Source of the DNA: a virus
Length of the DNA: 64,000 nucleotides
Strand: one strand, 5' to 3'
IMG/VR virus record: IMGVR_UViG_3300036985_004624
Positions within the stretch are counted from its first letter, which is position 1, and each line of letters starts with the position of its first letter. The notes beneath the pieces were generated by a model. That model was given only the letters and a program-made list of their open reading frames with translations. It was not told the DNA's origin and ran no database searches. This document shows positions 26,756 through 63,333 of the stretch, piece by piece. A program made the position numbers and the translations under genes.

Positions 26756-27806
26756 ATTTTCGTTGTCTCTCGTTTTGTTCTAATTCCCATGCCACTTTAA
26801 TCTTGACTTTACCGGATACTGCTGAAGAAATTATGGAATGAGTCGTCAATAATCTTCCATATCTTACTGCTGCGGCTGCGGCATCTTTTATGTCTACTTC
26901 CCACTTCGGGAAGGATACTGCCCAATTATTTTCGATAGCGGCATCGACTAGATCGCCACCCTTCTTATCTCTATCAGGACATACAATAATATTCTTCTGT
27001 AATCTGTTAATTATATCAACTTTAGATTGTCCTATTTCGCCTAATATACTTATGCCATCTGTTACCCAGGCATCCAGTACACCCTCAGTGGCTATAGTGT
27101 ATTTACGTGACCACCCTTGCTGATGATCCAAGTTATAGACAAAGTCTGTCGGCGACTGCTGAAAGTATTTAGGTATCGATTTGTCTGGAACATCGTAACA
27201 TAGCCTACCTGTATATCCTACTATGTTATCCTTATAGAAATAGGGTATAATAAGTCGTTGATGCATATTATGCATCTTAGAAGGTGACCAATAAAAATTC
27301 TGTAAATCAAATATCTTTCTATCTATCGCATAATTGACTACTCTTAAGAAATTTCTGTCTGTTAATCCATTTTCTAACCAAGTCGAAACGGAACAAGCAT
27401 CCTCGGGTAACTCCATGGGCTTCCATTTCTGAAATAATGCTTTAAATTTACTCTCGGGATCTTCTACTACTGCACCTTCTCTAACGGACTGGATTTGATT
27501 CTTTTGTTTGAATATTTCAAACTCCATTTGCTCGATAAATTTTTCATCTATGTGTAGTTGATTCAAGAAAAACTTAAAAGACTTGGATAACTCCTTACCT
27601 TCTGTATATCCCGAAGAGAATCCACAGTTAAAGCAATTCATCGCAATAGAATTAGGATTAAATTGTATTCCGAAACGGAAGCGAGTATCTCTACCGTGGC
27701 CCTGTGTGTGACAGAGTGGACAATTGCGCTTATTCCAGCCCTTAGGTGCTTGCTTGAGCGGGCCTATATTCGAAAGTATTGCGTCTTTTAAGACATCTAT
27801 AATCAT
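26745..27806 (-). CDS. DNA primase (T4 gp61-like)
   Basis: CPLC...CFNC zinc finger, RLIIP...GYTGR, TOPRIM EGVLDA and PDRD, KDA. Confidence 0.9.
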   Translation of the reverse strand: MIIDVLKDAILSNIGPLKQAPKGWNKRNCPLCHTQGHGRDTRFRFGIQFNPNSIAMNCFNCGFSSGYTEGKELSKSFKFFLNQLHIDEKFIEQMEFEIFKQKNQIQSVREGAVVEDPESKFKALFQKWKPMELPEDACSVSTWLENGLTDRNFLRVVNYAIDRKIFDLQNFYWSPSKMHNMHQRLIIPYFYKDNIVGYTGRLCYDVPDKSIPKYFQQSPTDFVYNLDHQQGWSRKYTIATEGVLDAWVTDGISILGEIGQSKVDIINRLQKNIIVCPDRDKKGGDLVDAAIENNWAVSFPKWEVDIKDAAAAAVRYGRLLTTHSIISSAVSGKVKIKVAWELEQNERQRKYER

Positions 27807-49618: not shown

Positions 49619-50079
49619 CAATATCCTAAGGTTGCCTTCTTCATAATAAATGCATCATCCAATGCATTATGTGCATCATATCCAAATTTAACCAATAGTG
49701 CTTCTTCTACAAGATCCGACACCCTAACAGGAAATATCATATTCTTTTCTAAATTTTCAGGCCAAAGTGTTTCTACTAATCTTCTTAAATGCGGCCAATC
49801 CCATGATGGATTATCGGAAGCAATAATACATGGCACATTTCGTTCTTCTATCCATTTACTTATGGCTAAGGAACATTCGTAATGCGTCATTCTGTGCGGC
49901 CCTGGCCCTCTCAGAAGTACCAATACATCCGATTTTACAAAATCAGAACAGTCTTTCAGTTCGTATGTATCGGTTAATTCAGCATAAAAGTAGTTTTCGT
50001 CTTCGTCGACCAAAGCAATGCTGATCAGCTTATTGCCGGGTATTAGATCAGTGAATTCAGTATCTAAAAATAATCTCAT
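49618..50079 (-). CDS. DEDDh 3'-5' exonuclease (Rv2179c-like)
   Basis: LFLDTEFT, LISIALV, WDW, HNALDDA. Confidence 0.88.
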   Translation of the reverse strand: MRLFLDTEFTDLIPGNKLISIALVDEDENYFYAELTDTYELKDCSDFVKSDVLVLLRGPGPHRMTHYECSLAISKWIEERNVPCIIASDNPSWDWPHLRRLVETLWPENLEKNMIFPVRVSDLVEEALLVKFGYDAHNALDDAFIMKKATLGY

Positions 50080-51224
50080 TTATCAATCCTCAGAATAACA
50101 TGATTCTCGTTAAGTTTGCCGCCGCACGGAATATCGAGTGTTGTTAAATCCTTCAAAAAAGTGCGAAGTTTGACCTTACTTGCCTTCTTGAAGTCTGCGA
50201 GCGTCTCGACAGGCTTACGCAGTGTTTTTTCTACAGAATCTGACGAATAATTCAGTAAACTTGCGCCTTTAACACTGAGCCCGCCTGCGTCAACTGCTTT
50301 GTACTGAGATAACTTGCGTGTTCTAACATTGTATGTCCATACTTCCTTAGCACCAATTATTTGTGTAGGATTCAAACTAACAATACCCAGTGTTTTATCA
50401 TCCTTCTTATATTTTAATTTAGATACAACTTTATCGGCAGAAACAAGTTTCTTTTTGCGGGGTGCTCTTTCTACCTTTGCAGATTCTTGCATCATTGTGC
50501 AAGCCTTAAATAGATTCCTATTGAATAGATCTGCCTTCTTCAATTCTGCATTAGTATAATTAGAATATGCTTCTACCAATTCTTTATCTTTACCTTGTAG
50601 TGCTTCGGCCATCTCCTTTAGTCGACCTTCAAACTCTGCTTGTATGAACTTCATGTGCGGTGCTTTTAATTCATTTGATTTAAATAAATTCACAAAATCC
50701 TCCACCGACTTTACAGGAAGTTTTTTATCCATACAGAAGTCGTCTATCCATCCTTCTATTTCTCCCGCAATCTGACACGATTTTTCACGCAACCTGTCCT
50801 GAATAGAGATAACTGCTTTAATAGGCTCTTGAACTTTGAGAACGGATCTATCCTGTGATTCTTTTTCAACTGCCGCAAGCCTTTTTTCTTCTTCATATAT
50901 TACTTTCTCCAAGGCGGGCATTAATTTAGGAAAAACGCTATCGGGTATATCGCATCCGTGGTTTAATAGATACATATACTTTCCCACAGTAGCAAATCTA
51001 TTTTCGTGCATATCTTTAATACGATCCAGTAATGGATGTTTTAGATTAATTGATTTAAGATACTTTATTACTTCCTTTTTTAATTCTGATGTTGAAAGTT
51101 CATAATGAGCATATAGCATGGCACTGTGAAAATTTCTCACGAAGTGCTTATTTGTTTTTACCGTATATTCGAAATCGGGTTTGGGCCAACTCACAAATAC
51201 ACCTGCCGAACTCTTTGTTGCCAT
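50076..51224 (-). CDS. Conserved hypothetical protein of large T4-like phages
   Basis: SIQDRLRE, IIGA..VW.YN..TRKL, KTLRKP, G.LNE...ILR. Confidence 0.75.
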   Translation of the reverse strand: MATKSSAGVFVSWPKPDFEYTVKTNKHFVRNFHSAMLYAHYELSTSELKKEVIKYLKSINLKHPLLDRIKDMHENRFATVGKYMYLLNHGCDIPDSVFPKLMPALEKVIYEEEKRLAAVEKESQDRSVLKVQEPIKAVISIQDRLREKSCQIAGEIEGWIDDFCMDKKLPVKSVEDFVNLFKSNELKAPHMKFIQAEFEGRLKEMAEALQGKDKELVEAYSNYTNAELKKADLFNRNLFKACTMMQESAKVERAPRKKKLVSADKVVSKLKYKKDDKTLGIVSLNPTQIIGAKEVWTYNVRTRKLSQYKAVDAGGLSVKGASLLNYSSDSVEKTLRKPVETLADFKKASKVKLRTFLKDLTTLDIPCGGKLNENHVILRIDK

Positions 51225-51323
51225 TTCTTATCCTTATGATATAAGATTATTTTAGCATCAGCCAAAAATAATCGCAACTAATCTTGGTTAGCTGCTCAGA
51301 GGATATTTATACGATCGGGTATC

Positions 51324-60250: not shown

Positions 60251-61180
60251 TTAAATCCCCGGAATCGTGCCAGTAAACGACGGAGAAGATTTTATACCTT
60301 CTAAATCAGAATATGTTGTACACATTGGCAATTTGCATATAATGGGCTCCTTAGATAAAGTAAATCCTGTAAAAATATTACTTAAATTTGCACCCTGATT
60401 ACAGCAAGTATTCGAAACATTGCCTATTTCATCAATCCGAACATAGGTATTAGGTACATGACATGTCCACCCGGTATATCTGTTCATATTTTTTGATACC
60501 ATCTCTGCTGGATCTGTTCGATATATAATTTCATCATTGTGATTATATATCCGTACCCATTTATCCACTGGATATGCCGATTCCGATATCCACGATATCT
60601 GTTCGGATGTATATCTTTCATTAACAGTTTGCCAATTATCCATAATTGCCTTTGTTGTCACAGAAAATCCGGCAGCGACTAATATATTATATACTGCAAT
60701 GCATTCATCCCATCTGTCGGGCAGCATCATTAAGCAAATTTTTCCTAACTTCTTATGCACGTTATAGATGAGATCAGCAATAGCTATAAATCTATCTAAA
60801 TTAGCATACTCTAAATGATAGGATAGAAATACAGCATTTATCATTGGTGTAATTCTTTCCCAGAATGCAATAGGTCTTGCACCATTACTTAATAAGTTAA
60901 TATTAATATAATCTGGTTTCTCTAAAATAATCTTTTCAATATCTGGATGATACGTCGGTTCGCCGCCACCTAATAACACATCACACGGTGGTAATTTTTT
61001 CAATGTATCCTGTACCACCTGTGTATTATGAAACGGAGAATTCCCCGAATAAAATTTAGGAATACAATAGCTGCACCGATATGTGCATATGTTGCCTAAT
61101 ATCCAGTATACTTTTATATTTCTGCGAGATTTGCCATCTATATAAGCTACTTCCGGATCATAAATATTCAATTCATTCAT
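60251..61180 (-). CDS. Radical SAM protein with twitch/SPASM-like C-terminus
   Basis: CTYRCSYC, GGGEPT, SNG, GW.C, CC, C...C. Confidence 0.88.
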   Translation of the reverse strand: MNELNIYDPEVAYIDGKSRRNIKVYWILGNICTYRCSYCIPKFYSGNSPFHNTQVVQDTLKKLPPCDVLLGGGEPTYHPDIEKIILEKPDYININLLSNGARPIAFWERITPMINAVFLSYHLEYANLDRFIAIADLIYNVHKKLGKICLMMLPDRWDECIAVYNILVAAGFSVTTKAIMDNWQTVNERYTSEQISWISESAYPVDKWVRIYNHNDEIIYRTDPAEMVSKNMNRYTGWTCHVPNTYVRIDEIGNVSNTCCNQGANLSNIFTGFTLSKEPIICKLPMCTTYSDLEGIKSSPSFTGTIPGI

Positions 61181-61446
61181 ACAATACTTATCTGACTTGC
61201 TGCTATCATTTTTGCTGCAATTTCCTCTGCTCTGGCCTGTATATCCGATTTAGTCATACACGCTTTCTTCCTGATTAATGCATCTCTTACCCATTGCGGG
61301 AAATGAGATCCTTCTAAGTTGGCAAGTTGCTCGGCCGTATAATTATCTAAATTATCTAGTACAAGTTGAACGTCTGGCTTCTTTTTCATTTTATTAAAAA
61401 ACGAATCTTTGTATCCGCGTGGGCCTAAAGCATAATTACCTTCCAT
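61177..61446 (-). CDS. Hypothetical protein
   Basis: Start MEGNY directly after the upstream stop (ORF track extends to 61572). Confidence 0.55.
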   Translation of the reverse strand: MEGNYALGPRGYKDSFFNKMKKKPDVQLVLDNLDNYTAEQLANLEGSHFPQWVRDALIRKKACMTKSDIQARAEEIAAKMIAASQISIV

Positions 61447-61447
61447 A

Positions 61448-61921
61448 TTAATATACCATCTTAGATTTATCGAACTTAAAATAGTATACTCGGCCGTTAC
61501 CATATGAGCTAGGTATATATTGATGCATACCGCCGCACTCGACAGCTTTATACATATACATCCTGCCTTCATAAAGAAATATGAGTGCTAGGTAATCTAA
61601 CCTCTTAATCTCTGCTGCCTTCTTGTATTGCTCGAATTTATCATCTACCGTAAAGCATTTATTACCATTTATTGTATATATAGAATTTTTAGATTTTACA
61701 TCTACCGCAAATGTTCCTTTGGTAGGATTTTTATTATATACTGCGAAATCTGGGAGAACTACTTTACCTTCTGTCCCGTATAAGCAAGGTCCTGCAAATT
61801 CTCCGTGTTTCTGTTGCCGGAGATCTTCTACGTAGCTATTATGTGCCACCAAATATGGATAGACCAGATTCTCTGCATCTATCCCCATCTCTAATTTTTC
61901 TTTAAAGTGCTCTGATTGCAT
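61448..61921 (-). CDS. PD-(D/E)XK nuclease-like protein
   Basis: G..AE, LPDF, VDVKSK. Confidence 0.6.
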   Translation of the reverse strand: MQSEHFKEKLEMGIDAENLVYPYLVAHNSYVEDLRQQKHGEFAGPCLYGTEGKVVLPDFAVYNKNPTKGTFAVDVKSKNSIYTINGNKCFTVDDKFEQYKKAAEIKRLDYLALIFLYEGRMYMYKAVECGGMHQYIPSSYGNGRVYYFKFDKSKMVY

Positions 61922-62380
61922 CTCTTACACGCATTAAAGTAATACCTAATAAGTTTTGGCCACGCCAAGTGTTTTGATCTAGTGCGCGTGGATCCTCTTC
62001 GGTGAGTCCAATACCCCAAATTCTGTCAACGGGGCTTGCCTCAACAATGATTGTATCGCCTGTATTTAATAGTGCTTCTTTCAATAAAGGGTTCTGATTA
62101 AATTTTTCAAATAAACCTTCTACCATTATATCGACTCGCTTTGCTGACCAGATTGCTTCATCATAATTAGCTACCATTCTGCCTAAATCTTTCTGTTCTT
62201 TAGGATTTCCGGTTAAGAGGATGGCATGAGCGGTATTGATATCGCCAAACATAATAGCTTTTTGGTACATCATGTATTGTTCGCCGCGGGAAAAAGAAAT
62301 ACCGTTATGAGTAAAAATACTAGGGTACCAATTTGAGAAGGGCATCTATTCTGCCAAAAAAATGTAAAGTTATGTGTCAT
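61902..62380 (-). CDS. NADAR (YbiA-like) ADP-ribosyl/N-glycosidase with a frameshift near the N-terminus
   Basis: FSNWY, EQYMMYQKA..F.D, K.LGR, KF.QN, VEASP.DRIWGIG, G.NLLG..LM.VR. The N-terminal MTHNFTFFWQNR from ATG 62380 is in a different frame. Confidence 0.88.
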
Positions 62381-62731: not shown

Positions 62732-62820
62732 TGGCGGAAGATGGAGGTATCGAACCCCAGGCCGTTGCCGACCCCAACTGTTTTCGAGGCAGTGTTATAC
62801 ACCTGTATAAATCATCTTCC
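62732..62820 (-). tRNA. tRNA-Ser(CGA), 8/4 fold with Sec-like D-arm
   Basis: GGAAGATG/CATCTTCC 8-bp acceptor, TTATAC-AGGT-GTATAA D-arm, CTCGAAA loop, long variable arm, GGGG/CCTC T-stem, G73-CCA. Confidence 0.85.
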
Positions 62821-62936
62821 ATTTCAGTATAGCGTTTTAAACATGCTTCCATTACACCAATTCCCCTTTCGGAGAACTGCGGATTCGAACCGCAACCGCT
62901 CTTTTATGAAAAGATTTTTATTTGCTGAAACTATAC
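62821..62936 (-). ncRNA. Circularly permuted tRNA-like RNA (YrlA/Y-RNA-like or tRNA mimic)
   Basis: Order 5'->3': anticodon arm TCTT-TTCATAA-AAGA, T-arm TGCGG-TTCGAAT-CCGCA, acceptor GTTCTCC-GAAA-GGGGAAT, TG, D-arm GTGT-AATGGAA-GCAT; ends pair via GTATAG/CTATAC and TTTCAG/CTGAAA. Confidence 0.8.
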
Positions 62937-63259: not shown

Positions 63260-63333
63260 TGGTATCGACGTCAGGAATCGGACCTGAGTTGAGCCCTTAT
63301 AAGGAGCCTATTCTACCATTGAATTACGCCGAT
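63260..63333 (-). tRNA. tRNA-Ile(TAT)
   Basis: ATCGGCG/CGTCGAT, GGCTC-CTTATAA-GGGCT, TCAGG-TCCGATT-CCTGA, A73-CCA. Confidence 0.85.

What the first reader, a model, noticed from the sequence alone, without database searches (positions are those of the whole stretch)
62821..62936. Circularly permuted tRNA(CAU)-like RNA clamped by a terminal pseudoknot
Seen: all tRNA arms are present but in permuted order: anticodon arm (UCUU-UUCAUAA-AAGA), variable region, canonical T-arm (UUCGAAU), 7-bp acceptor stem closed by a GAAA tetraloop (no CCA end), U8-G9, then the D-arm. The chain opens between the D-arm and the anticodon arm. The flanks pair in two crossing ways (GUAUAG/CUAUAC and UUUCAG/CUGAAA) next to a CAGCAAA segment. 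Its 3' end abuts tRNA-Ser, so RNase P would release it. Known: bacterial YrlA Y RNAs have a T-arm-before-D-arm tRNA module with a closed acceptor and bind Ro60; permuted tRNA genes are known from some algae and archaea. A retained anticodon arm is not what I recall for YrlA. Inference: a non-chargeable tRNA decoy for CAU-specific anticodon nucleases or tRNA-sensing defences, a new Y-RNA class, or a precursor that is circularised and reopened into tRNA-Met/Ile2. This is the best candidate for an undescribed system here, together with the adjacent KTSC protein.
Basis: partly seen in the sequence, partly recalled or inferred. Interest (0 to 1): 0.88.

Follow-up and report, generated by a model that had tools for sequence, protein, structure and literature searches.

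The report
Phage Ro-partner RNA mimicking whole tRNA
This 116-base stretch is a real small RNA gene of a giant phage: a complete tRNA look-alike with its arms in rotated order and its amino-acid end sealed, mounted on a conserved "handle". It belongs to a large, unannotated RNA family that always travels with a Ro60-like ring protein, so it is most likely that protein's partner RNA and not a working tRNA.

Summary
On the minus strand of 62821-62936 lie, in order: anticodon-like arm, 4-nt variable loop, T arm, 7-bp acceptor stem capped by GAAA, U8-G9, and D arm. A 6-bp terminal helix (GUAUAG/CUAUAC) and a CAGCAA motif enclose them. Re-permuted, ARAGORN calls it tRNA-Met(CAU).

It is not a one-off. 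A covariance model built from it finds 71 matches (64 distinct) in IMG/VR phages. All five helices covary (97% paired, 25 of 26 pairs changed on both sides), and tRNA tertiary pairs are kept.

The "anticodon" is not conserved: 16 different triplets occur, and it is the most variable site among near-identical copies. The proposed second, crossing pairing ("pseudoknot") has no support, and the KTSC link is not supported.

The family co-occurs with a DUF2828/DUF7788 protein whose predicted fold matches Ro60. That gene is present in 11 of 11 near-complete carrier genomes, against 1.4% of GenBank phages.

Best reading: a Y-RNA-like adaptor. It is a new variant of YrlA-type tRNA mimics that keeps a full anticodon arm and uses a handle like that of Dictyostelium Class I RNAs. 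It is cut from the tRNA array by RNase P.

It fails the Rfam YrlA and Class I thresholds.

This scan had already found the Ro-like system on adjacent DNA of the same genome.

The parts
62931..62936 (-). Handle helix, 5' strand (GUAUAG)
   Evidence: Pairs with 62827-62832. All 6 pairs covary across 64 distinct homologs and 98.7% of cells are paired.
62922..62930 (-). Conserved single-stranded handle motif UUU-CAGCAA (CAGCAA = 62922-62927)
   Evidence: CAGCAA is present in 57-61 of 64 distinct members, column by column. It aligns to the CUUACAGCAA motif of the Rfam Dictyostelium Class I model.
62899..62915 (-). Anticodon-arm mimic: A-UCUU / UUCAUAA / AAGA-G. The triplet CAU is at 62906-62908.
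   Evidence: ARAGORN cloverleaf of the re-permuted sequence. All four modelled pairs covary. 35 of 58 members have at least 4 bp plus a 7-nt loop at tRNA spacing, against 4.3 in shuffles; the loop consensus is C32-U33-NNN-A37-A38.
62895..62898 (-). Variable loop (CGGU); the last U is position 48
   Evidence: A15:U48 occurs in 48 of 64 members, and both G15 members have C48.
62878..62894 (-). T arm: UGCGG-UUCGAAU-CCGCA
   Evidence: The loop is nearly invariant and the stem covaries (99.4% paired).
62860..62877 (-). Acceptor-stem mimic, 7 bp (GUUCUCC/GGGGAAU, with G3:U70 and U7:G66), sealed by a GAAA tetraloop (62867-62870); no free ends, no CCA
   Evidence: All 7 pairs covary (98.3% paired). 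Loops vary (GAAA, GUAA, or 8-9 nt). G3:U70 occurs in only 10 of 61 members.
62843..62859 (-). U8-G9 and D arm: GUGU-AAUGGAA-GCAU
   Evidence: U8:A14 in 60 of 64 members, and G18 G19 are conserved. Position 9 covaries with pair 12:23 (G9 with G12:C23 in 35 members, A9 with U12:A23 in 11).
62833..62842 (-). 3' linker GUUUAAAACG (purine 26, then a conserved A-run)
   Evidence: The column after the D stem is G or A in 53 of 64 members. Four A-rich columns lie before the handle's 3' strand.
62821..62832 (-). Handle helix 3' strand (CUAUAC) and tail UGAAAU
   Evidence: UG follows the helix in 56-59 of 64 members, like the CUG(U) end of Class I RNAs (PMC7919456).
62736..62820 (-). Downstream tRNA-Ser(CGA); RNase P cleavage at its 5' end would set the 3' end of the element
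   Evidence: Rfam tRNA-Sec model 46.4 bits; ARAGORN tRNA-Ser(cga) at a relaxed threshold. Family-wide, 28 of 62 members have a tRNA within 15 nt downstream.

Best explanation
The element is a gene for a stable non-coding RNA of the Y-RNA kind, and it has two modules. The first is a conserved handle: a 6-bp terminal helix, the single-stranded motif NUN-CAGCAA on the 5' side, an A-run on the 3' side, and a 3' ...C-UG end. The handle is inferred to be the binding site for the phage's Ro60-fold ring protein (Pfam DUF2828 + DUF7788). The second module is the payload: a complete, L-shaped tRNA mimic. It has an anticodon arm, a class-I variable loop, a T arm, a sealed 7-bp acceptor stem and a D arm. 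The chain enters and leaves between positions 26 and 27. The RNA is transcribed within the phage tRNA array. Its 3' end is made when RNase P cuts the 5' end of the adjoining tRNA-Ser. It cannot be charged as it stands because it has no free acceptor end, and it does not decode. By analogy with Y RNAs, which tether Ro60 to PNPase, the tRNA-shaped module is inferred to dock the Ro-like ring onto a tRNA-recognising partner, or to present a tRNA-like bait. Shown: the structure, its conservation, the co-occurrence with the protein, the protein's predicted fold, and the embedding in tRNA arrays. Inferred: physical binding, processing, and the downstream function.
For: Structure: the cloverleaf is recovered after re-permutation. 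There are 71 CM matches (64 distinct) in IMG/VR, and all five helices covary (97.4% paired, 25 of 26 pairs changed on both sides, slid controls 38-46%). tRNA tertiary signatures are kept (U8:A14, R15:Y48, 9:12:23, G18G19, T loop). Handle shared with other payloads: the complete relative G001 has at least 7 RNAs with the same handle. A cluster of them ends 13 nt before the start codon of a 477-aa gene. Partner: that gene is DUF2828 + DUF7788. Its AlphaFold model (pLDDT 82.6) has Ro60/TROVE structures as its 13 best PDB matches (E 5e-10 to 1e-6, TM 0.45-0.63). Co-occurrence: the gene is in 33 of 49 carrier records and in 11 of 11 that are at least 90% complete, against 710 of 50,697 GenBank phages. 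In mycobacteriophage Kingsolomon a family member lies about 100 nt after the gene annotated 'Ro-like RNA binding protein'. Kinship to Y RNA: the tRNA-like core of member L066 matches Rfam YrlA at 36.5 bits, E 5e-7, with the same order of arms. Processing: 28 of 62 members have a tRNA within 15 nt downstream. No promoter-like site lies between the upstream ORF and the element. Not a decoder: 16 different triplets occur, and near-identical bodies carry different triplets.
Against: The Ro-like gene of this very genome lies beyond the window. No Ro-like gene is inside the window. The window's element and its G001 homolog are not next to the Ro-like gene (about 3-5 kb and 42 kb away). The partner protein fails the Pfam TROVE model, so 'Ro-like' rests on a predicted fold. 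The alignment used for the pair counts was fitted to the model's structure, which favours that structure. Only 35 of 58 members keep a canonical anticodon-like arm, so that arm may not be essential to the family's function.
Confidence: 0.7

Rival explanations
1. The RNA is an anticodon-arm decoy or sensor. The sealed tRNA mimic, alone or held by the Ro-like ring, soaks up or reports host tRNA-targeting defence nucleases (PrrC/RloC, VapC, PARIS AriB, retron or PtuAB-type effectors) and so protects the phage's working tRNAs. This is a specific version of the payload's function and is compatible with the best explanation.
For: A full anticodon arm with the U33/A37 loop signature is kept in 35 of 58 members, unlike YrlA (10.1101/312249). 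The triplet is the most variable site among near-identical RNAs, while the rest of the arm is invariant. G34 is preferred (about 25 of 35 triplets begin with G, counted from the list). The RNA sits in large phage tRNA arrays.
Against: High variability of the triplet is equally expected from simple lack of constraint. 23 of 58 members lack a canonical arm. No nuclease or defence gene is linked to it. Nothing was tested experimentally.
Confidence: 0.13
2. The sealed acceptor is opened in vivo by RNase P at G1 and receives CCA, as shown for Mycobacterium smegmatis YrlA. This would give a two-piece tRNA-like RNA held together by the handle and tertiary contacts. It might even be charged, since G3:U70 is the AlaRS determinant.
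For: [quoted passage not shown] The window copy has G3:U70.
Against: The cap is a stable GNRA tetraloop with no single-stranded leader. Stem length and loop vary in the family (6-8 bp; loops of 4-9 nt). G3:U70 is present in only 10 of 61 members.
Confidence: 0.08
3. It is a true circularly permuted tRNA gene. The transcript would be circularised through its paired flanks, reopened at the acceptor, and matured into a working tRNA-Met or tRNA-Ile2(CAU), as in Cyanidioschyzon merolae.
For: The 3' half precedes the 5' half. The re-permuted sequence scores as a tRNA. The flanks pair.
Against: The triplet changes among RNAs with the same body: GUA, GGA, GAA, ACG and GCG on one scaffold with a 4-nt variable loop. 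In bacteria that scaffold would not fit the Tyr or Ser synthetases (my knowledge). The flanks form a plain 6-bp helix with long linkers, not a bulge-helix-bulge motif, and no splicing endonuclease is known in bacteria or phages (my knowledge). The same handle carries non-tRNA payloads of 10 to about 190 nt. Only 4 nt join the acceptor strands, and no CCA is encoded.
Confidence: 0.03
4. It is a dead relic: a leftover of a tandem tRNA duplication followed by deletions, or of a nuclease-cassette rearrangement in the tRNA cluster, with no function.
For: The closest relative that has the upstream 101-aa gene (L001) has tRNA-Ser 14 nt after that gene with no element in between. Homing-nuclease traffic in this tRNA cluster was noted by the scan.
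Against: 64 distinct homologs have compensatory changes in every helix and conserved tertiary nucleotides. The family is present in cultured phages of several genera.
Confidence: 0.02

Closest known systems
YrlA, the tRNA-mimicking Y RNA of bacterial and mycobacteriophage Ro60/Rsr (Rfam RF02553; Chen et al. 2014, PMC4201824; crystal structure preprint 10.1101/312249)
   Same: The order is T arm -> closed acceptor-like stem-loop -> U8-N9 -> D arm. The tertiary nucleotides are conserved (T loop, G18G19, U8:A14, Levitt pair). The 5' and 3' ends pair. It is encoded with a Ro60-fold protein and often next to tRNAs. A member's core aligns to the YrlA model (36.5 bits). M. smegmatis YrlA also has a 7-bp acceptor stem.
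   Different: YrlA 'lacks the anticodon loop': its anticodon stem is made by the two ends and runs straight into the Ro-binding module. Here a separate anticodon stem-loop is kept, and the handle leaves the body between positions 26 and 27 through 16-nt and 10-nt linkers. The motif is CAGCAA, not GNCGAA(N)G. The partner is DUF2828/DUF7788, not a Pfam TROVE protein. The window element gives no YrlA hit even at E <= 10.
Dictyostelium Class I RNAs (Rfam RF01414; Kjellin et al. 2021, PMC7919456)
   Same: A short terminal stem joins the 5' and 3' ends. A conserved motif...UUACAGCAA, lies directly after the 5' strand. The 3' end is CUG(U) and the interior is variable. Handle-only neighbours of family members reach 35.3 bits over the full length of the model.
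   Different: Class I RNAs are 42-65 nt, eukaryotic, use the DUSE promoter, and have no tRNA-like interior. They were reported as unique to dictyostelids, with an RRM protein as binder. The window element scores 13.2 bits against a cut-off of 41.5.
Circularly permuted tRNA genes of Cyanidioschyzon merolae and some archaea (my knowledge; reviewed in PMC4090602)
   Same: The 3' half of a tRNA is encoded upstream of the 5' half, and the flanks pair.
   Different: Those genes yield working tRNAs through a bulge-helix-bulge motif and the splicing endonuclease, and each has a fixed anticodon. Here there is no such motif, the triplets vary, the acceptor is sealed, and the RNA is linked to a Ro-like protein.
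Deinococcus radiodurans Yrn1 (Y RNA)
   Same: It is a Ro60 partner RNA for which a possible 'anticodon arm' with a 5-bp stem was modelled (PMC4201824).
   Different: The Yrn1 loop has 6 nt. The arms are oriented differently relative to the RNA ends, and the D arm is doubtful. No sequence match was seen here.

Membership tests
Canonical tRNA (Rfam RF00005) | Contiguous cloverleaf with free 5' and 3' acceptor ends; model score at least 29 bits | tested here: not met
   The element gives no RF00005 hit at the gathering threshold or at E <= 10. ARAGORN finds a tRNA only after artificial re-permutation. The acceptor is sealed by GAAA.
Circularly permuted tRNA gene (C. merolae type) | 3' half encoded upstream of 5' half | tested here: met
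   The order is anticodon arm, T arm, acceptor 3' strand, acceptor 5' strand, D arm.
Circularly permuted tRNA gene (C. merolae type) | One fixed decoding identity (anticodon kept with its body), with maturation signals at the termini (bulge-helix-bulge) | tested here: not met
   16 triplets occur among 35 members, and different triplets sit on near-identical bodies. The flanks form a plain 6-bp helix. The absence of a bulge-helix-bulge motif is my own reading of the sequence.
YrlA (Rfam RF02553) | Covariance-model score at or above the gathering score of 69 bits | tested here: not met
   The window element gives no hit at E <= 10. Relatives score 36.5 bits (L066 core) and 37.9 bits (Kingsolomon).
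YrlA (Rfam RF02553) | tRNA-like domain ordered T arm, closed acceptor stem-loop, D arm, with conserved elbow and tertiary nucleotides | tested here: met
YrlA (Rfam RF02553) | Anticodon stem formed by the 5' and 3' strands, no anticodon loop, continuing into the Ro-binding module with the GNCGAA(N)G motif | tested here: not met
   A separate anticodon stem-loop is present. The motif is CAGCAA. The definition comes from PMC4201824 and 10.1101/312249.
YrlA (Rfam RF02553) | Encoded near, and bound by, a TROVE-domain Ro60 ortholog | tested here: inconclusive
   Five related records give no Pfam TROVE hit. However, the co-occurring DUF2828/DUF7788 protein has a predicted Ro60 fold. Binding cannot be tested with these tools. 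The gene in this genome lies outside the window.
Dictyostelium Class I RNA (Rfam RF01414) | Covariance-model score at or above 41.5 bits; length 42-65 nt | tested here: not met
   13.2 bits, E 5.5, with a 69-nt insertion. The element is 116 nt.
Dictyostelium Class I RNA (Rfam RF01414) | Short terminal stem, conserved motif containing CAGCAA next to the 5' strand, 3' CUG(U) | tested here: met
   The alignment, the column counts, and the description in PMC7919456.
Phage CAGCAA-handle RNAs with a tRNA-mimic payload (family defined here by model R1) | Full-length match to the model, with handle helix, CAGCAA, T arm, closed acceptor and D arm, and co-occurrence with the DUF2828/DUF7788 gene | tested here: met
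The window element is the seed. 71 matches were found plus G001. Co-occurrence is 11 of 11 in near-complete genomes.

The most novel reading that the evidence does not exclude
Phages carry a modular ribonucleoprotein: one Ro60-like ring (DUF2828/DUF7788) plus a set of interchangeable handle RNAs. This payload is a sealed, full-length tRNA dummy whose exposed 'anticodon' is free to change or is driven to change. It would serve as bait that captures or senses anticodon-directed host nucleases or other tRNA-reading factors during infection. The same RNA would also be a living intermediate of the proposed origin of Y RNAs from dimeric tRNA transcripts, and it would tie the orphan Class I RNAs of Dictyostelium to Ro-like proteins.
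Probability: 0.15. Interest if true: 0.88.

Novelty: new variant of a known kind. Interest (0 to 1): 0.72.

Why it matters
Y RNAs and Ro60 are known mainly from animals, a few bacteria and some mycobacteriophages, and what the tRNA-like module binds is still an open question. This element shows that a much larger, unannotated set of phages encodes a sister system with a divergent Ro-fold protein. The protein is found in 710 GenBank records, including Felixounavirus, Listeria, Campylobacter, Enterococcus and Vibrio phages.

Here the RNA is a complete tRNA mimic that keeps its anticodon arm. That matters for three reasons.

- **Experimental access.** It offers cultured, genetically tractable systems, for example Felix O1-like phages on E. 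coli or Salmonella laboratory strains, in which to ask what Ro-like rings and tRNA mimics do.
- **Origin of Y RNAs.** Its layout is anticodon arm, T arm and acceptor 3' strand of one tRNA, a 4-nt spacer, then the acceptor 5' strand and D arm of the next. This is what the 'dimeric tRNA origin' model of Y RNAs predicts for an early form (10.1101/312249).
- **Annotation.** It explains stretches in phage tRNA clusters that are now annotated as spurious ORFs, such as orf047 of phage AYO145A.

Tried and rejected
- **Rfam**, at gathering and relaxed thresholds, gave no tRNA, YrlA or tmRNA hit on the element. The only hits were a 15-nt T-arm match to tmRNA (8 bits) and noise.
- **Permuted or two-piece tmRNA.** G3:U70 and the GGGG start suggested it. 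I rejected it: ARAGORN finds no tmRNA, there is no room for a tag frame before tRNA-Ser, and G3:U70 is not conserved.
- **Exact and acceptor-relaxed DNA patterns of the window copy** found nothing in viral contigs or metagenome contigs. blastn of the 301-nt region found nothing in GenBank phages. No near-identical genome was reached, so whether CAU is kept in the closest kin is unknown.
- **Pfam TROVE search** of five related records gave no hit.
- **Single-sequence fold** of the Ro-like protein failed (pLDDT 36). It succeeded only with a 24-sequence alignment.
- **Sequence search of the Ro-like protein against PDB chains** gave nothing meaningful.
- **KTSC link.** Rejected. KTSC homologs sit in tRNA clusters of relatives without the RNA next to them.
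- **Terminator reading of the A/U hairpin.** Rejected: no U-tract follows it, and the scan finds nothing there.
- **Cellular genomes.** The family pattern hit 62 stretches, but only 11 match the model, mostly on MAG contigs. This gives no case for a bacterial chromosomal family.
- **Tools unavailable.** As a result I could not read the window's own Ro-like gene or any expression data.
- **Complex prediction** was not used, because it does not take RNA.
Full report
**What is there.**
The window is part of an uncultured T4-like jumbo phage. It has an rIIA gene, and its tail sheath is about 50% identical to that of Pseudomonas phage PA5oct. The genes in this region lie on the minus strand, in a tRNA cluster.

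On the minus strand, 62936->62821 reads GUAUAG / UUUCAGCAA / AUAAAA / A-UCUU-UUCAUAA-AAGA-G / CGGU / UGCGG-UUCGAAU-CCGCA / GUUCUCC-GAAA-GGGGAAU / UG / GUGU-AAUGGAA-GCAU / GUUUAAAACG / CUAUAC / UGAAAU.

When the 5' half (acceptor 5' strand to D arm) is placed in front of the 3' half, ARAGORN calls a tRNA-Met(cat) at its default threshold. In its native order the element matches no Rfam family.

The next base downstream starts a tRNA-Ser(CGA) with a Sec-like body (Rfam tRNA-Sec 46.4 bits; ARAGORN at a relaxed threshold). The element begins 7 nt after the stop codon of a 101-aa ORF. No promoter-like site lies in between.

**It is a conserved RNA, not a relic.**
A covariance model built from this one sequence (R1) finds a full-length homolog in a complete 364-kb relative (G001, 52 bits). 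In that homolog the flank helix, T stem, acceptor stem and D stem are all changed by compensatory substitutions. UUCAGCAA, the T loop and the D loop are kept.

A pattern drawn from the two copies (CAGCAA ... GGTTCGANTCC ... TAATGG) hit more than 113 stretches in IMG/VR. R1 confirmed 71 matches in the 80 loci searched, 64 of them distinct and nearly all full-length.

On that alignment:
- 97.4% of cells are paired, against 59% in shuffles and 38-46% when partners are slid.
- 25 of 26 pairs show changes on both sides.
- Each of the five helices is supported on its own.

The alignment was fitted to the model, which favours the structure. The number of double changes (607 cells) is still far beyond that bias.

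Tertiary signatures of the tRNA L-shape are also kept:
- U8:A14 in 60 of 64 members.
- A15:U48 in 48 members, and both G15 members have C48.
- Position 9 follows pair 12:23 (G9 with G12:C23 in 35 members, A9 with U12:A23 in 11).
- G18G19, A21 and the UUCGAnU T loop are conserved.
- A purine occupies position 26.

**The anticodon-like arm.**
35 of 58 members with a CAGCA handle have a hairpin of at least 4 bp with a 7-nt loop, placed 4-5 nt before the T stem. Shuffled controls give 4.3.

The loop follows C32-U33-NNN-A37-A38, the signature of an anticodon loop. The 4-nt spacer (GGGU or CGGU) looks like a class-I variable loop. I therefore read the hairpin as an anticodon arm and not as the 'V' arm drawn for YrlA.

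The triplet is not conserved. There are 16 different triplets, and G is favoured at position 34.

Within one tight subgroup the stem and the four flanking loop bases are invariant. The middle triplet base is the most variable column of the whole RNA. Two copies in that subgroup differ at a single base, and that base is position 34.

CAU is therefore not a family property, and these RNAs are not decoders.

**The 'pseudoknot'.**
It is 60.9% paired against 62.8% in shuffles, and two of its five pairs are mostly unpaired. What is conserved there is the sequence itself, CAGCAA on the 5' side and UG after the helix on the 3' side. These are recognition motifs more likely than a knot.

**The handle and the partner protein.**
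It called this element the fifth copy. I therefore tested the claim on relatives.

- **Handle RNAs in G001.** G001 has at least seven RNAs with the handle G-N5 / N3 / CAGCAA ... A-run / N5-C / UG. Their payloads range from 10 to about 190 nt.
- **Cluster before a gene.** A cluster at 50.0-51.3 kb ends 13 nt before the start codon of a 477-aa gene. The cluster includes a second tRNA-like payload on a variant handle.
- **The protein.** The 477-aa protein is Pfam DUF2828 + DUF7788. With a 24-sequence alignment, AlphaFold gives pLDDT 82.6 and pTM 0.83. Its 13 best PDB matches are all Ro60/TROVE structures over the full length.
- **Gene order.** KTSC, the 157-aa gene and rIIA follow in the same order in G001 and in the window. 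No copy lies inside the window.
- **Co-occurrence.** Among records that carry the tRNA-mimic RNA, 33 of 49 encode the protein, and 11 of 11 that are at least 90% complete do. G001 makes twelve. The baseline is 710 of 50,697 GenBank phages, or 1.4%.
- **Cultured carriers of the gene.** Carriers of the Ro-like gene include Felixounavirus, Listeria, Enterococcus, Campylobacter, Vibrio and Staphylococcus phages, and mycobacteriophages in which the gene is already annotated 'Ro-like RNA binding protein'.
- **AYO145A.** In Escherichia phage AYO145A the RNA lies at KR014248.1 27229-27358. It is unannotated, under a hypothetical ORF on the other strand.
- **Kingsolomon.** In mycobacteriophage Kingsolomon a member with the CAGCAA handle follows the Ro-like gene by about 100 nt.

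**Processing.**
28 of 62 members have a tRNA starting within 15 nt of their 3' end, and 17 have one ending within 30 nt upstream. The window copy abuts tRNA-Ser. Release of the 3' end by RNase P is therefore the natural reading, though it is inferred and not shown.

**Comparison with known families.**
YrlA has the same T arm, closed acceptor and D arm order and the same tertiary core. The core of one member aligns to the Rfam YrlA model at 36.5 bits (E 5e-7), and the Kingsolomon RNA scores 37.9 bits. Both are below the 69-bit cut-off, and the window copy gives no hit at all.

Published YrlA 'lacks the anticodon loop'. Its anticodon stem is formed by the two ends and leads into a Ro-binding module with the motif GNCGAA(N)G (PMC4201824; 10.1101/312249). 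Here a separate anticodon arm is kept. The chain opens between positions 26 and 27, the motif is CAGCAA, and the protein is not a Pfam TROVE member. It works like a Y RNA but is not a YrlA member by the tests available.

The handle resembles Dictyostelium Class I RNAs: a terminal stem...UUACAGCAA, and a 3' CUG(U) (PMC7919456). Small handle-only RNAs next to family members score 35.3 bits on that model. The window element scores 13.2 bits.

The layout fits the published idea that Y RNAs arose from dimeric tRNA transcripts (10.1101/312249). It runs: anticodon arm, T arm and acceptor 3' strand of one tRNA, a short spacer, then the acceptor 5' strand and D arm of the next.

**Mechanism and confidence.**
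Best reading, about 0.7: this is a Y-RNA-like adaptor. The handle binds the Ro-fold ring, and the sealed tRNA mimic docks onto, or baits, a tRNA-reading factor.

The structure and its conservation are close to certain. Binding, processing and function are inferred.

Rivals:
- A decoy for anticodon nucleases. This is compatible with the best reading and is untested.
- Opening by RNase P with CCA addition, as in M. smegmatis YrlA. The 7-bp stem permits it. The GNRA cap and the variable stems argue against it as a family trait.
- A true permuted tRNA gene. This is contradicted by the varying triplets and the shared handle.
- A rearrangement relic. This is refuted by the covariation.

**Novelty.**
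Literature searches found no paper linking DUF2828 to RNA and no report of permuted tRNA-like RNAs in phages. The jumbo-phage survey mentions only TROVE proteins with 'a tRNA-like partner' (PMC7824862).

I class it as a new variant of a known kind. The wider system was already picked up by this scan on adjacent DNA of the same genome. This report adds the following:
- The family-wide structure of the tRNA-mimic payload.
- The retained but non-conserved anticodon arm.
- The rejection of the pseudoknot, the CAU specificity and the KTSC link.
- The co-occurrence statistics.
- The presence of the RNA in cultured model phages.

Noticed in passing
window 62736-62820 (-): This is a tRNA-Ser(CGA) with a Sec-like body (6-bp D stem with a 4-nt loop, long variable arm). 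ARAGORN misses it at its default threshold. It scores 46.4 bits on the Rfam tRNA-Sec model, just under the cut-off of 47.
   Followed up: partly
L001:2889-2984, L002:2683-2774, L003:~1745-1840: Relatives carry a 92-96 nt tRNA with anticodon UAU (Ile) that seems to have a long variable arm or an insertion. The window's tRNA-Ile(UAU) at 63260-63333 is a normal 74-nt tRNA.
   Followed up: no
L011:10059-11290 (G001 50059-51290): At least six handle RNAs lie in a row before the Ro-like gene. Their payloads run from 10 to about 190 nt and their motifs vary (CAGCAG, CAGCAU, CCGCAU). One of them (about G001 50820-50925) is a second permuted tRNA mimic. The last ends 13 nt before the start codon, next to the ribosome-binding site.
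   Followed up: partly
L203:4895-5152 (KR014248.1 27195-27452, orf047): The hypothetical ORF annotated in Escherichia phage AYO145A, and in wV8 by similarity, lies on the strand opposite the conserved RNA at 27229-27358. It is probably a spurious call.
   Followed up: partly
L066:6948-7355 (-): This phage contig encodes a tmRNA (beta_tmRNA 95.4 bits; permuted tmRNA model 97.4 bits) in the same tRNA-rich region as two tRNA-mimic handle RNAs.
   Followed up: no
L107:1506-1618 (+): A second RNA lies directly upstream of a family member. It matches the Rfam YrlA model over its full length at 39.3 bits (E 3e-5), below the cut-off. This suggests arrays of different Y-like RNAs.
   Followed up: no
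L002:1771-2226 (+): The gene after the Ro-like gene in G001 encodes a 151-aa staphylococcal-nuclease-like protein with a weak, sub-threshold match to a lipoprotein signal motif (Pfam SNase, E 6e-11). It is a possible effector of the system.
   Followed up: no
window 60251-62345 (-): A NADAR-domain protein (E 2e-50) and a radical-SAM protein lie among the tRNA genes just downstream of the element.
   Followed up: no
alignment A2, acceptor loop of the GGUUCU/GAAUCG subgroup: In one subgroup the acceptor stem is capped by an invariant 7-8 nt loop, GUUGGUC(U/A), instead of a tetraloop. This suggests that the cap itself is recognised in those phages.
   Followed up: no
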